Shown here: piece by piece, positions 30,001-36,000 of the stretch
How the letters are laid out: every line of letters starts with the position of its first letter
How positions within the stretch are numbered: the first letter of the stretch is position 1
NCBI GenBank assembly: GCA_039630575.1
Contig: JBCNUW010000008.1
Span: 1 to 64,000, forward strand
DNA length: 64,000 nucleotides
Direction: 5' to 3'
DNA from: Candidatus Hydrothermales bacterium
GTDB lineage: Bacteria > Hydrothermota > Hydrothermia > Hydrothermales > JAJRUZ01
Program-made: the position numbers

Positions 30001-33000
30001 CTGGATCTTTATTTAAAAGAAAAAGTGGTCTTAGTTTTTTCCCTTCTACTTCGAAAGATTTTCCAAACATAAAAATTTTATCTGGTGGTAATAAACTTTT
30101 AATATCTTCTTTCCTTAAAATTTTCTTTATACTGTCAAAGTAAATCTCTTCAAAAACAATGTCTCCTCTGTATAGGAATAAAAGGGGTTTTATGGAATTA
30201 TCAATTTTATCAATGATTTTTTTTGTTTTTTCAATATCTTCAACTAAGTGAAAAGTTAAAACAGCAGTTTTTCCTATTATTTCTCTTGCCCTTTCTCTTT
30301 CCATAACTCCCGGAAGTTGAACCATTATCCTATCCTCACCAACTGGTTGAATTACAGGTTCATAAACACCCCATTGATCTATCCTATTTCTAATGATTTC
30401 AAGAACCCTATCTCTTGCATCCTTAACTTTTTCCTTTTCTTTAGCCTCTACTTTCAGGACAAGATACATACCTCCAACCAGATCAAGACCTAACGAAAGT
30501 GCTCTGTTAAGTAGTTTTCTTACTTCCTCTTTAGGTTTCCTTTCTAGTTCTTTTTTAGGCATTGAATAGTATTGAAAAGTTGGTAGTAAGGTTATAAAAG
30601 AAAATAAAATAATTATTAAAATTATTAAATATTTCCATCTTAACGTTTTCACTTTTAGAGGATATTGAATTTGGGGATTGGAACCCAATGGTTTTTGACA
30701 AATTGATTATAAAGAAAATTTTAAAAATTTATCAAACTTTTAAAGTTGAAAAGGTATAATTGAAATAATTATAATTATATTGGGGGGGAATTAAAGGTTC
30801 TATTCCCTATTTGGGATATCAAAAAGGAGGGTTTCTGAAATGGTTGAAATTAGATTTCATGGGAGGGGTGGACAAGGAACTGTAGTAGCTTCAAAGGTTA
30901 GTGCAATAGCAGCCTTTAAAAAGGGTTTTTATCCCCTTGCCTTTCCGCAGTTCGGAGTGGAAAGAAGGGGTGCTCCTGTTGCTGCTTTTTTAAGAATTTT
31001 TAACCCAGATGAGAAGCTCTATTTAAGATGTAATATATATAATCCAGACATCATAGTGATTTTAGACCCAACTTTACCTGAAATGATCAATGTTACTGAG
31101 GGATTAAAGGATAATGGGAAAATTATTATTAATTCTGATAGGGAACATAATTTTGGCTCTAACTTTAAAGTTTTTGCTGTAGATGCAACCTCCATCGCAA
31201 TTAAACATAAACTTGGCTCAAAAGCCCAACCAATAGTGAATACAGCAATATTAGGGGCTCTTGCAAAAGTTTCAGGAATTTTTGGTATGGAGGAGTTAAA
31301 GCTTGCAATAGAAGAAGAGATAGAATTTAAAGCTATAGAAAATATAAAAGCTGCTGAAGAGGCTTTTTTATCTTGTAAGGAAATATAAAAGGAGGTTTAA
31401 ATGAGTGAAAGAATACATTATAAAAATATTGATGAATTACCTGAAATTGCATTATCAGTTGGTTCAACAAGAGTATTAAAAACAGGATCCTGGAGAAATG
31501 TAAAACCGGTAATAGAAGATAAGGCTGCTCCCTGTACAAAGGCATGTCCAATAGGAACTAAAATTCCACAATATTTTTACCACACCATTGAAAAGGATCT
31601 TGATAAAGCAGCTGATATTCTCCTTGAAAAAAATCCTTTTCCTGCTATTACAGGTAGGGTATGTCCTGCTTTCTGTCAAATAGGATGTAACAGAAAGAGG
31701 TTTGATGAAAGAATTTCTATTAGAGAAATTGAAAGGTTTGTGGGTGACTATATTTTAGAAAGGGGGTACAAAGTTAAAAATTTACCTTCTGACACTGGTA
31801 AATCTATAGCAGTAGTTGGTTCAGGTCCTGCTGGTATGGCAGCTGCTTATTATTTAAGAAGAGCAGGACATAAAGTAACTATCTATGAAAGAGAGTCTTT
31901 ACCAGGAGGTGTCTTGAGATATGGAATACCACCTTATAGGCTGCCTAAGGATATTCTCGACAAGGAATTTGAAATGCTTTTGAATATGGGAATTAAGATA
32001 GAGACAAACAGAGAACTCTCAAAGGATCTTGATTTGGAAGAACTAAGAAAAAATTTTGATGCTTTATTTATTGCTACAGGAGCCTGGATTGAAAAGAAAA
32101 TGAAAATTGAAGGAGAAGAACTTTTTCTCTCCGGTGTTCACTTTCTTAAGGAATTTAACACAGGAAAGGACATCTCAAGGTTTAAAGGAAAAAAAGTAGC
32201 TTGTATAGGAGCAGGTAATGTGGCGATGGATGTAGTAAGAACATTAAAGAGAATAAATGCAAAGCCCGAGATTCTATATAGGAGGACTGAAGCTGAAATG
32301 CCCGCCTTGGAAGAAGAAAGAGAGAAGGCAAAAAAAGATGGAATTCCCTTTCATCTTCTTGTTCTCCCGATCAAGGCGAAAGAAAAAAACGGTAAAACTG
32401 TTTTAACAATACAAAGAATGCAGTTAGGAGAACCAGATTCCTCTGGTAGAAGAAGACCTGTACCAGTAGAGGGTTCTGAGTATGAGGAAGAATATGATTT
32501 TGTCATAAAAGCAATTGGTGAAGAGTCTGATAGGAAGTTATTACCTCCTGAATATCTTGGGGAAGATGGATGGCCCTATGCAGATAAAAAAACTGCTGCC
32601 ACTAAGGTAAAGGGGGTTTTTGCTGGTGGAGATTTTATACAGGGACCTTCAACTGTTGTAGAGGCAGAATCTTGGGCTCAAAAAGCAGCTGAGAGTATAA
32701 ATAGATACTTAAAGGGAGAAGATTTAACTATAAAGGAAAGTGTACCGAAAACCGTTTCCTATATGCTTATAAAAACAGACTACTTTAAAAAAGAAAAGGC
32801 CATTCATCCTTTTGAGTTAACTGTTGAAGAAAGAATCAATTCCTTTGAAGAGGAAGTTAAAACACTTTCAGATGAATTGGCAATCAAAGAAGCAAAGAGG
32901 TGTTTTTCTTGTGGTTATTGTAATTCTTGCGGAAACTGTTTTGTTTATTGTCCGGATATGGCAGTTTTATGGAAAGATTCACGGCCTTTAATAGATTACG

Positions 33001-36000
33001 ATTTTTGTAAAGGTTGTGGTGTCTGTGCAAGTGAGTGTCCAAGAGGAATAATAAACATGGTTTAAAATTTAAAGGAGATTTAAAATGGAAAAACTAAAGA
33101 CAAGAGAAAAAAAAGTTTTATATGGTAATCATGCTGTTTCATACGGAGTAAAGGTTTCAAGAGTGCAGGTTATATCAGCTTATCCTATTACTCCACAAAC
33201 TCCGGTTGTAGAGTTACTTTCAGAAATGTGTGGAAAAAAGGAACTTAATGCAACTTTTGTGAATGTTGAGTCAGAACACTCTGCTATGGCAGTTTGTATT
33301 GGTGCGAGTATATCAGGTGCAAGAGTATTTACAGCAACTTCCTCCCAGGGTTTACTTTTGATGCATGAACTTTTGCATTGGGCAACTGGAGATAGGCTTC
33401 CGATTGTAATGGCAGTTATAAACAGAGCTGTTGCTGCTCCATGGTCAATTTGGTCTGATCAAAATGACACAATATCCCAAAGAGATACAGGATGGATGCA
33501 AATTTATTGTGAGTCAAACCAAGAGGTTCTTGACTCTATTATTTTGGCTTACAAAGTTTCTGAAAAGGTTTTTCTTCCTACAATGATTGTTCTTGATGCT
33601 TTTATTTTATCTCACACTGCAGAGCCAGTTGAGATTCCAAGTCAAGAGGAAGTTGATAATTTTCTACCTCCACTTGTTCTTCCATGGGCATTAGATCCGC
33701 AAAAACCTGTTGCTATAGGTGCTGTTGTTTCTCCTTCAGGTCCCTATATGGAATTAAGGTATAAAATACAAAAGGCAATGGAAAAAGCCCTTGAGGAAAT
33801 TGAAAATGCTTCTTTGGAATATGAGAGTATTACTGGCAGAAGATGGGGAGTTTTTGAAGAATTTATGATGGATGACGCTGATACTGTTATAGTTGTTTCA
33901 GGTGCTATTTCCTCAACTTTTAAATACACTGTCAATGAGATAAGAAAAGAAAAAAATAAGAAAATTGGTGTATTAAGAATGAGGGTTTTAAGACCTTTCC
34001 CTTTTGTGAAATTGAGAGAAATTTTAGGTGACAGAAAGAGGATTATTGTTGTGGATAGAAATATTTCTTTTGGGTCAGGTGGTGTTTTTTTCAATGAAAT
34101 AAGGTCTTGTCTTTATAATTTAAAAAGAAGACCTAAAATTTTGGGCTATATAACAGGTTTAGGTGGAAGAGATATTACACCTAAAGACATTTATGATATG
34201 ATTGAGGATGCTGAAAAAAGAAAGGGTGAAGAGGATATTATATTTTTTGGGTTAAAAGAAGAAAATATAAACTTATAAAAGGAGGTTAAATTATGGCTTT
34301 TGAGTGGGAGGATCTTTTACAGGAAGAGCTTTTAGATCCTGGAATTTTATCCTGTCAAGGGTGTGGTGCAGTGATAGCTTTAAGGCATATTTTAAGAGCA
34401 CTTGGAAAAAATACAGTTGTTACAGTTCCAGCCTGTTGTTGGACTATTATTGATGGGCCCTATCCTTATCATTCCTTAAAAGTTCCTCTTTTTCATACTG
34501 CTTTTGAAACAGCAGCTGCTGCAGCCTGTGGCATAAGGGCAGGCATGAATGCAAGAGGTAAAAGTGATGTGAACGTTTTAGCCTATGCAGGTGATGGAGG
34601 CACCTTTGATATAGGACTTCAGGCACTTTCTGGAGTTGCAGAAAGAAACGAAGATATTATTTATATCTGTTATGATAATGAAGCCTATATGAATACTGGA
34701 ATTCAGAGATCAGGGGCTACACCTTATAAGGCATGGACTGCCACTACACCTTTTGAAAGTCCTAACCAAAGACCAAAGAAAAATATCGTAGAAATAATGA
34801 GAGCTCATAAGATACCTTATATAGCTACAGCAAATGTGGCTTTTCCTCTTGATCTTTATAAAAAAGTAAGAAAGGCAAAAGAAATAAAGGGAACAAGATT
34901 TATACATGTTTTGTGTCCCTGTCCCCCTGGATGGAGAATGGATTCAGAATTAACAGTTAAAGTTGCAAGACTTGCAGTTGAAACAAAGGTTTTTCCACTA
35001 TATGAGATTGAAAATGGCGACTTTTTGAGAATAAATTACATGCCGAAAGGTCTACCTATAAAAGATTATCTTACAATTCAGGGAAGGTTTAGACACTTAA
35101 GAGAGGATGAAATTATAGAAATACAGAAAATAGTAGACTATAGCTTTGATAAATTACTTGAAGAACATAAAAGATCAAATGGAACAATTGATAACATAGA
35201 AAGAGGAATATATAAATAGGTTCAAAGCCTAAAAAAAATTTTTGCTGAAATGGAGGTAATTGAAGAAGGTAAAGTAGAGCTAATTCAAAGGCCTGATGTG
35301 GAAGAATTTAGGAAATTTGTAAGAGAAAAGAAAAGAAGAGGTTTTGTGGACAAAGTAATGGATGAAAAGGAGGCAGTAAAGGAATTTATAAATGACGGTG
35401 ACTATATTGGAGTTGAACTTTATGGCACTGTGAGAGCTCCTCTTTCGGTTGTGCGAGAAATTGCAAGACAAGGGAAGAAAAACTTAAGACTTGCAGGTCA
35501 AGGTCTTCTTGAGATTGATTATCTTTTAGCCTTAGATCTAGTTGAAGCAATGGATGTTACCTATATTGGTTATGAAGTTTTAGGTCTTTCTCCGATTTTT
35601 AGAAGAGCTGCTGAAAGTGGAAAAATTAAAATTGCAGAATGGTCAAATGGAGCAATGTCGTGGAGATTTAAGGCAGCAGCTATGGGTATCCCTTTTATTC
35701 CTGTAAGGAGTATGCTTGGTTCAGATACTTTTAGATACTCATCAGCAAAAGTTGTTAAATGCCCTTTCACAGGATTAAAACTTTGCCTTTTACCAGCCTT
35801 AATACTTGATGTAGGGATAATACATGTTCATAAATGTGATAAGTACGGAAATGCTGTGATTGAGGGTATCTCTGGTTTTGCCTTTGAGATGGCAAGGGCA
35901 TCAAAAAGACTTATAATAAGTACTGAAGAGATAATCTCAACTGATGAGATAAGACGATATCCCGAGAGAACAATAATTCCTTATTTTCTTACTGATGCTG

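What a model noticed while it worked through the whole genome (the two positions that open the first line are those of the whole stretch)
30840..35219. 2-oxoacid oxidoreductase whose delta subunit is fused to a GltD/NfnB-type NAD(P)H flavoprotein
In a porC-X-porA-porB operon the delta slot holds a 554-aa protein: GltD/SudA-like Fe-S flavoprotein plus a C-terminal 2[4Fe-4S] PorD domain. This predicts a 2-oxoacid:NAD(P)+ oxidoreductase that need not release free ferredoxin.
Evidence so far: Domains Fer4_20, Pyr_redox_2, Fer4 at 530-551. Full-length orthologues in 16 of 61 WOR-3 genomes from several classes; 15 of these 16 have the gamma-X-alpha-beta order. A second, ordinary porCDAB operon lies on C8.
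(Added by a program. Inside this text positions count along the whole contig: contig position 1 is position 1 of the stretch shown here. "Call 12" and the like, gene names such as g00115 and contig names such as C1 are that model's own, and its searches are not shown. The text may have been shortened before it was handed on; [...] marks where a part breaks off. The agent that wrote the report below was given it as the finding of a first reader that could run no searches.)

Follow-up and report, generated by a model that had tools for sequence, protein, structure and literature searches.

The report
NADP-linked 2-oxoacid oxidoreductase delta subunit
An anaerobic keto-acid-splitting enzyme carries a whole NADP-reducing flavin module inserted inside its small iron-sulfur subunit, so it probably makes NADPH directly instead of handing electrons to ferredoxin, and the same design is found in many kinds of bacteria.

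Summary
Confirmed and extended. The operon is gamma-X-alpha-beta. X (554 aa) is not a flavoprotein with a PorD tail. It is a PorD split in two: residues 3-41 match PorD profile positions 13-51 and residues 507-554 match 53-101. A circularly permuted GltD/NfnB module is inserted between them. All eight NfnB cluster ligands, both PorD cluster motifs and the NADP-type YRR motif are present. X belongs to NCBIfam PRK12771 ('NAD(P)-binding protein'). The family extends far beyond WOR-3: 76 of 80 cross-phylum loci carry oxidoreductase subunit genes, none has a separate delta in that operon, and 11 are gamma-X fusions. The window's beta scores as VorB-like; the genome's ordinary C8 operon is PorB-like. 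Best reading: a 2-oxoacid:NADP+ oxidoreductase, probably for branched-chain 2-oxoacids, with a hard-wired TPP to five [4Fe-4S] to FAD wire. There is no assay and no model of the complex. NAD(P)-linked enzymes of this kind are known (Azoarcus KGOR, Pad), and the gene linkage was noted as an exclusion criterion in a DsrL paper. Verdict: a new variant of a known kind that gives a function to a widespread unnamed family.

The parts
30746..30775 (+). sigma70-like promoter match (TTGAAA-18-TATAAT) in the gap shared with the divergent secD gene
   Evidence: the region has no more such sites than shuffles (16 vs 20.7), so only its position is suggestive
30840..31388 (+). gamma subunit (PorC/VorC type), 182 aa
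   Evidence: PF01558; TIGR02175 188.6 vs cut-off 81.1
31401..33065 (+). X: delta subunit with inserted GltD/NfnB-type FAD/NADP module, 554 aa, predicted 4 [4Fe-4S] + FAD
   Evidence: NF009410/PRK12771 523.8 vs 516; TIGR02179 64.7 vs 60.05; model pLDDT 82.9, pTM 0.81
31407..31523 (+). X residues 3-41: N-terminal arm of PorD with the TGxWR motif
   Evidence: matches only PorD/VorD profiles; NF007202 positions 13-51, E 7.1e-7; aligns with ordinary deltas; low pLDDT when folded alone
31524..32912 (+). X residues 42-504: inserted, circularly permuted GltD/NfnB module (C45, C49, C88, C92, C96, E111, R180; FAD and NADP Rossmann folds; C501, C504)
   Evidence: residues 42-440 align to T. maritima NfnB 44-462 and residues 472-504 to NfnB 10-42; ligand numbering from PMC7596348; Foldseek top hits NfnA/StnC/NfnB/GltD
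32277..32285 (+). YRR motif (residues 293-295), binds the 2'-phosphate of NADP
   Evidence: aligned to NfnB YRR; meaning from PMC7596348
32919..33062 (+). X residues 507-554: 2[4Fe-4S] ferredoxin domain of PorD (C507, 510, 513, 517; C536, 539, 542, 546)
   Evidence: NF007202 positions 53-101, TIGR02179 positions 26-75; 52% identical to the C8 delta
33085..34278 (+). alpha subunit, 397 aa
   Evidence: POR_N + PFOR_II; VorA 416.8 and PorA 416.4, neither over its cut-off
34293..35219 (+). beta subunit (TPP, [4Fe-4S]), 308 aa, VorB-like
   Evidence: PRK11864 VorB 401 vs PRK11865 PorB 384, both cut-offs 405
35250..36982 (+). two-subunit CoA-transferase genes directly downstream; probably co-transcribed here but not a conserved part
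   Evidence: PF01144; adjacent to the operon in 2 of the 15 class genomes that have the gene, of 64 searched

Best explanation
The operon encodes a four-subunit 2-oxoacid:NADP+ oxidoreductase (CoA-acylating). Alpha and beta decarboxylate a 2-oxoacid on TPP and transfer the acyl group to CoA (established OFOR chemistry). X is the delta subunit: its N-terminal arm and C-terminal ferredoxin domain re-form PorD and dock on the gamma/alpha/beta core (inferred). Electrons pass from TPP to the beta cluster, the two PorD clusters, the distal cluster of the insert (C45, C96, C501, C504), the proximal cluster (C49, C88, C92, E111), FAD and NADP+. C504 is three residues from the PorD ligand C507, so the two halves of the wire are covalently adjacent (shown in sequence; transfer inferred). 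The flavin collects two single electrons into one hydride and does not bifurcate. The window's enzyme most likely prefers branched-chain 2-oxoacids (VOR type), while the ordinary C8 enzyme handles pyruvate with ferredoxin. With -500 mV (the pyruvate couple) against -320 to -380 mV for NADP (table in PMC9304861), the reaction is downhill by about 23-35 kJ/mol (my arithmetic), so it should run oxidatively. Confidence: about 0.9 that X is the delta subunit, 0.72 for direct NADP+ reduction, 0.55 for branched-chain substrates.
For: Split PorD with contiguous profile positions 13-51 and 53-101. Eight NfnB-type ligands invariant in 71 of 71 full-length relatives; YRR in 66 of 71; TGxW[RK] arm in 63 of 71. 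76 of 80 cross-phylum loci carry OFOR subunit genes: 28 gamma-X-alpha, 11 gamma-X in-frame fusions, 27 gamma-alpha-beta-X, 10 partial or spaced; 3 of the 4 without begin at a contig edge. The only small separate deltas in loci L001-L136 belong to other operons (L037, L064, L129). 49 of 52 further loci, mostly Desulfobacterota-type, do too. L129 keeps the arm, cluster ligands and ferredoxin domain but has lost the NADP domain, and still fills the delta slot. Beta scores best as VorB in 25 of 25 gamma-X operons tested (11 over cut-off), and as PorB in 11 of 11 gamma-alpha-beta-X and 3 of 3 ordinary operons (39 betas chosen by me from the loci held). A stand-alone fabH precedes gamma in 17 of 19 X-bearing genomes outside the window's class, which fits branched acyl-CoA primers plus NADPH. 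The closest solved relative (T. sibiricus NfnA, 9n5u) has an FAD predicted to be an NADP(H) site and not a bifurcation site. G000 shows no other GltD/NfnB gene, no PntB and no G6PD (94.7% complete).
Against: No activity, cofactor or expression data. The PorD clusters may still be reachable by free ferredoxin. Some members lack YRR (L035 SLE, L041 YPS, L101, L116, L120, L127). Two full-length X genes lie without OFOR genes (L047, L069). The window's alpha does not discriminate VorA from PorA, and its beta is just under the VorB cut-off. The fabH link comes from one related lineage; in G000 fabH is on another contig. The cross-phylum sample was the best 80 of 585+ hits to an X-derived pattern, so it is not an unbiased census of PRK12771. 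G000 has an isocitrate/isopropylmalate dehydrogenase-family gene that could supply NADPH.
Confidence: 0.72

Rival explanations
1. A two-exit enzyme or anchored ferredoxin:NADP+ reductase. X is the delta subunit, but ferredoxin still docks on the PorD clusters, so the main job is to share electrons between ferredoxin and NADP(H), including electrons from the other OFORs and hydrogenases.
For: All eight PorD cysteines are kept. X is the only GltD/NfnB-like protein found in G000, which has several other OFORs. One X sits next to rnfB without OFOR genes (L047). The Azoarcus KGOR is recalled to serve both acceptors (recalled, not read).
Against: Strict linkage to OFOR genes and gamma fusions point to a dedicated subunit. 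The insert starts and ends right beside the first PorD cluster motif and may cover a docking face (inference; no structure of the complex).
Confidence: 0.15
2. An electron-bifurcating enzyme. The FAD works as in NfnAB, so NADPH could drive reductive carboxylation of acyl-CoA while a high-potential partner takes the second electron.
For: The NfnB Glu-ligated proximal cluster (E111 = E117) and the flavin-side Arg (R180 = R187; role recalled) are invariant. The low-potential branch is the one wired to PorD.
Against: No NfnA/PyrK or BfuBC partner gene was seen next to the operon, though neighbours were not screened systematically for these families. The only PyrK-like gene in G000 lies in a pyrK-pyrD-pyrF-like cluster (pyrD and pyrF read by eye). 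The same residues occur in the non-bifurcating Bfu-type NfnA.
Confidence: 0.06
3. X is a DsrL- or SudA-like protein of sulfur metabolism that merely lies in this operon, or passes 2-oxoacid electrons to sulfur.
For: Same Pfam domain order as DsrL. A 750-aa SudA-like protein was proposed for sulfur reduction in WOR-3 strain sy37.
Against: No dsrA match in G000. DsrL is defined as not linked to OFOR genes. X carries the PorD arm and replaces delta.
Confidence: 0.05

Closest known systems
Four-subunit POR/VOR (gamma-delta-alpha-beta; e.g. PDB 9bt4; NCBIfam PorA-D, VorA/B/D)
   Same: Gene order, alpha, beta and gamma sequences (9bt4 best solved match, E 3e-99 and 8e-75), PorD arm and 2[4Fe-4S] domain
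   Different: Delta carries a 463-aa FAD/NADP/2[4Fe-4S] insert; predicted acceptor NADP+
2-oxoglutarate:NADP+ oxidoreductase (KGOR) of Azoarcus evansii
   Same: OFOR chemistry coupled to NADP+ through a GltD-family subunit (title and clade listing seen in PMC10134865)
   Different: Recalled as a three-subunit Kor-type enzyme with a free-standing flavoprotein subunit; here a four-subunit Por/Vor type with the module inside PorD. Paper not available; sequence not compared.
Phenylglyoxylate:NAD+ oxidoreductase PadEFGHI (Azoarcus, Aromatoleum)
   Same: Por-type gamma/delta/alpha/beta subunits with a pyridine-nucleotide acceptor (title seen in PMC5109826; NCBIfam names)
   Different: Keeps a separate small delta (78-position PadF model) and a separate flavoprotein (PadH, recalled); NAD+; the window's subunits score far below the Pad cut-offs
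DsrL
   Same: N-terminal cluster domain, FAD/NAD(P) domains, linker, C-terminal 2[4Fe-4S] domain; YRR as in DsrL-2 (PMC7596348)
   Different: Partner is DsrAB; defined as not OFOR-linked; its C39-equivalent is Ser/Thr, whereas X supplies C39/C42 equivalents from the C-terminal RCxxC
NfnA of T. sibiricus / C. saccharolyticus and StnC of S. ovata (Bfu-type), and NfnB/SudA/GltD
   Same: Closest solved folds (TM-score by query 0.77-0.79); the Bfu-type ones share the C-terminal RCxxC placement
   Different: They connect to a BfuBC core, NfnA or GltB, not to an OFOR; no PorD parts
Por-Bfu (predicted) and Euglena pyruvate:NADP+ oxidoreductase
   Same: OFOR joined to a pyridine-nucleotide module
   Different: Por-Bfu uses a BfuBC core; the Euglena enzyme is a PFOR fused to a cytochrome P450 reductase domain (recalled)

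Membership tests
PRK12771 / NF009410 | score over the curated cut-off | tested here: met
   523.8 vs 516 bits
PorD/VorD delta subunit | TIGR02179 cut-off, TGxWR arm, two CxxCxxCxxxC motifs | tested here: met
   64.7 vs 60.05; arm and ferredoxin halves
PorD/VorD delta subunit | encoded with gamma, alpha and beta, with no other delta in the operon | tested here: met
PorD/VorD delta subunit | physically part of the complex | not testable with these tools
   needs purification; gamma-X fusions are indirect support
VOR (2-oxoisovalerate oxidoreductase) | subunits over the Vor cut-offs | tested here: inconclusive
   beta 401 vs 405, best family VorB; alpha 416.8 vs 646; 11 of 25 related betas pass
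VOR (2-oxoisovalerate oxidoreductase) | activity on branched-chain 2-oxoacids | not testable with these tools
   assay needed
DsrL | domain order Fd - FAD/NAD(P) - linker - Fd | tested here: met
DsrL | organism has dsrAB | tested here: not met
   no dsrA match in G000, 94.7% complete
DsrL | not linked to pyruvate/ketoisovalerate oxidoreductase genes | tested here: not met
   criterion 3 of PMC7596348
NfnAB / SudAB (bifurcating) | cluster ligands and YRR of the large subunit | tested here: met
   (circularly permuted)
NfnAB / SudAB (bifurcating) | adjacent [2Fe-2S]/FAD small subunit gene | tested here: not met
   none in the operon; the sole PF10418 gene is on C56 in a pyrimidine-like cluster
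Glutamate synthase small subunit GltD | TIGR01316/01317/01318 cut-offs | tested here: not met
   324 vs 472, 229 vs 448, 266 vs 483
Pad (phenylglyoxylate:NAD+ oxidoreductase) | PadE/G/I cut-offs | tested here: not met
   137 vs 300, 297 vs 700, 260 vs 700
Azoarcus KGOR | orthology of the flavoprotein and Kor-type alpha/beta | not tested
   KGOR sequences not in hand; the window's alpha/beta are Por/Vor-type, not Kor-type

The most novel reading that the evidence does not exclude
The inserted module keeps NfnB's bifurcating flavin with its low-potential branch hard-wired to TPP. With a still unidentified high-potential partner, NADPH alone could drive reductive carboxylation of acyl-CoA: a ferredoxin-free, electron-bifurcating 2-oxoacid synthase, spread over many phyla under the label 'glutamate synthase small subunit', and possibly the ancestor of DsrL.
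Probability: 0.06. Interest if true: 0.9.

Novelty: new variant of a known kind. Interest (0 to 1): 0.62.

Why it matters
Genome reconstructions count every por/vor operon as a source or sink of reduced ferredoxin. If PRK12771 proteins are NADP-reducing delta subunits, a widespread class of these enzymes makes NADPH and is practically irreversible. Record titles include WOR-3, Desulfobacterota/Syntrophobacterales, Planctomycetota, Bacteroidota, Chloroflexota, Acidobacteriota, Actinomycetota, alpha/beta/gamma-proteobacteria, Nitrospira and Clostridia. That would change electron budgets and claims of CO2 fixation by 'pyruvate synthase' in these organisms. It also gives a function to an unnamed NCBIfam family that is variously labelled glutamate synthase, selenate reductase or SudA. 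It is testable in cultured strains (Magnetovibrio blakemorei MV-1, L124; Demequina litoralis, L108). It offers an alternative reading of the 750-aa 'SudA' of the only cultured WOR-3 strain, and a compact ferredoxin-independent OFOR of use in engineering.

Tried and rejected
Chance neighbourhood: rejected by conserved order, fusions and the lack of a separate delta. GltD, DsrL, NfnB and Pad membership: rejected (see membership tests). CoA-transferase as a core part: rejected (2 of 15). A prediction of the beta-gamma-X complex gave no model and no verdict, so docking is open. No RNA holder was listed for the region; this is no evidence either way. The attempt to find the sy37 record with the gamma-X fusion alignment returned only 8 other loci: 5 with an ordinary gamma-delta and 3 gamma-only matches not examined further; SYKM_11010 is unverified. 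The attempt to find Syntrophobacter fumaroxidans with a Syntrophobacteraceae X did not list it among 52 loci, so nothing is claimed about Sfum_2792-2795. The promoter/terminator scan was at chance level. Ten paper searches found no study of this protein; PMC6338057, PMC5736913, PMC12542636 and PMC5947623 (passages) added nothing on it. The original KGOR paper was not available. No supplements were read; Table S8 of PMC10134865 and the DsrL supplement may list such proteins.
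Full report
Observation. The window holds gamma (30840-31388), X (31401-33065), alpha (33085-34278) and beta (34293-35219) on the + strand with gaps of 12-19 nt. 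Two CoA-transferase genes follow. An ordinary gamma-delta-alpha-beta operon lies on C8. X passes the cut-offs of NF009410/PRK12771 and of TIGR02179 PorD, but none of the GltD models.

Anatomy of X. The first 42 residues, scanned alone, match only delta-subunit families: NF007202 positions 13-51 at E 7.1e-7. The last 56 residues match positions 53-101 of the same model. Alignment with three ordinary deltas puts the whole flavin module between the TGxWR..P strand and the first cluster motif. The module is circularly permuted relative to T. maritima NfnB. X 42-440 aligns to NfnB 44-462, and X 472-504 aligns weakly but in register to NfnB 10-42, so C501 and C504 stand for C39 and C42 (numbering from PMC7596348, passages and section 14 read). 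C45, C49, C88, C92, C96 and E111 match the other six ligands, and YRR 293-295 matches the NADP motif. The AlphaFold model from a 16-row alignment has pLDDT 82.9; the arm is poorly defined without partners. Its best fold matches are NfnA, StnC, NfnB and GltD. X thus predicts four [4Fe-4S] clusters and one FAD.

Distribution. In the phylum, 47 of 201 genomes have an X-type match. Of 42 read, 37 show gamma-X-alpha, 4 are cut by contig ends and 1 stands next to rnfB. Of these, 28 are gamma-X-alpha, 11 gamma-X fusions, 27 gamma-alpha-beta-X, 10 partial or spaced, and 4 have no OFOR gene, 3 of them starting at a contig edge. No X operon has a separate small delta. Among 71 full-length copies the eight ligands are invariant, YRR is in 66 and the arm motif in 63. 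A scan with a Syntrophobacteraceae X gave 52 loci, 49 with OFOR genes; the other 3 are two contig-edge cases and one partial 40% match (two of these contigs were also). The protein search showed 750-aa gamma-X fusions, one cluster named Ca. Hydrothermae, and relatives named Armatimonadetes, KSB1, Bipolaricaulota and Latescibacteria.

Substrate class. Of 39 betas that I chose from the loci, all 25 from gamma-X operons (18 separate, 6 fused, L129) score best as VorB, 11 over the cut-off. All 11 from gamma-alpha-beta-X and all 3 from ordinary operons score best as PorB. In a 44-row beta tree, midpoint-rooted for drawing only, the gamma-alpha-beta-X betas form one group (100/98) beside the ordinary WOR-3 PorB (100/96). 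The gamma-X betas lie elsewhere without firm support as one clade. X therefore serves at least two OFOR lineages; the direction of transfer was not tested. In 17 of 19 X-bearing genomes outside the window's class a stand-alone fabH lies just upstream of gamma, while genes further upstream differ in the loci read. FabH takes acyl-CoA primers and fatty-acid synthesis uses NADPH (general knowledge), which fits a VOR-type NADPH-forming enzyme. These genomes are kin, and G000's fabH is unlinked.

Mechanism. Shown: subunit genes, split PorD, ligand sets, NADP motif, replacement of delta, fusions. Inferred: assembly, the wire TPP - beta cluster - two PorD clusters - distal - proximal - FAD - NADP+, a non-bifurcating flavin, and the oxidative direction (23-35 kJ/mol downhill from the potentials in PMC9304861, passages read). 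The same paper predicts that the FAD of T. sibiricus NfnA, X's closest solved relative, is an NADP(H) site and not a bifurcation site. G000 shows no other GltD/NfnB gene, PntB, G6PD or dsrA, but has an isocitrate/isopropylmalate dehydrogenase-family gene. Against: no assay, a few members without YRR, two free-standing X genes, and L129, which has lost the NADP domain and shows that the flavin part can be dispensable.

Comparison and novelty. NAD(P)-linked OFORs are known. Azoarcus KGOR was seen as a reference title and clade listing in PMC10134865 (passages and section 8), and its details are recalled. Pad was seen as passages and a reference title in PMC5109826. The Euglena enzyme is recalled, and Por-Bfu is a prediction. 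Loffler et al. excluded DsrL-like genes linked to pyruvate/ketoisovalerate oxidoreductase subunits from their set, so the linkage has been seen. Ten searches of the open library found no description of the insertion into PorD, of PRK12771's function or of an assay; most subscription papers and all supplements were not seen. PMC12285271 (passages) proposes a 750-aa SudA-like protein for sulfur reduction in strain sy37. Its length equals that of the gamma-X fusions, but I could not check the sequence.

Verdict. The feature is real, conserved and more widespread than reported: a new variant of a known kind. Interest 0.62.

Noticed in passing
L038-L040, L042-L046, L048-L052, L054, L058 (upstream of gamma): A stand-alone fabH sits directly upstream of the X operon in most X-bearing WOR-3 genomes outside the window's class, suggesting branched-chain fatty-acid priming.
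   Followed up: partly
L129:5986-7083: A 366-aa X that has lost the NADP domain and much of the FAD domain but keeps all cluster ligands and the delta slot; back-to-back with an ordinary por operon.
   Followed up: partly
L047:920-3445 (G005): A full-length X without OFOR genes, directly followed by an rnfB-like gene: a possible NADP-Rnf link.
   Followed up: partly
P0025, P0034; PMC12285271 SYKM_11010: 750-aa gamma-X fusions have the same length as the 'SudA' proposed for sulfur reduction in cultured WOR-3 strain sy37; identity not verified.
   Followed up: partly
P0079 and similar: Proteins of about 790 aa carry the same permuted GltD module inserted into a xanthine/CO-dehydrogenase FAD subunit (PF00941 and PF03450), so the module looks like a mobile insert.
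   Followed up: no
L035:5998-7584, L041:6157-7788, L101, L116, L120, L127: X variants without YRR (SLE in L035, like NAD-type DsrL-1); possibly NAD-specific or degenerate.
   Followed up: no
L095 and L096, upstream of gamma: An FAD_binding_2 (fumarate reductase-like) flavoprotein gene precedes the gamma-alpha-beta-X operon in Syntrophobacteraceae-type loci (Pfam scan on L095 only).
   Followed up: no
G000:C45:47843-54392 and C15:22002-27985: A four-subunit Kor-like operon runs into hdrC/B/A-like genes, and a second hdr cluster adjoins mvhD/G/A-like genes (read by eye from translations).
   Followed up: no
window 35250-36982: Two-subunit CoA-transferase genes follow beta in G000 and G063 only.
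   Followed up: yes
window 37646-41746: STAS-domain protein (Pfam) followed by an ORF that looks like a HAMP/PP2C phosphatase and by TPR-like proteins (read by eye).
   Followed up: no
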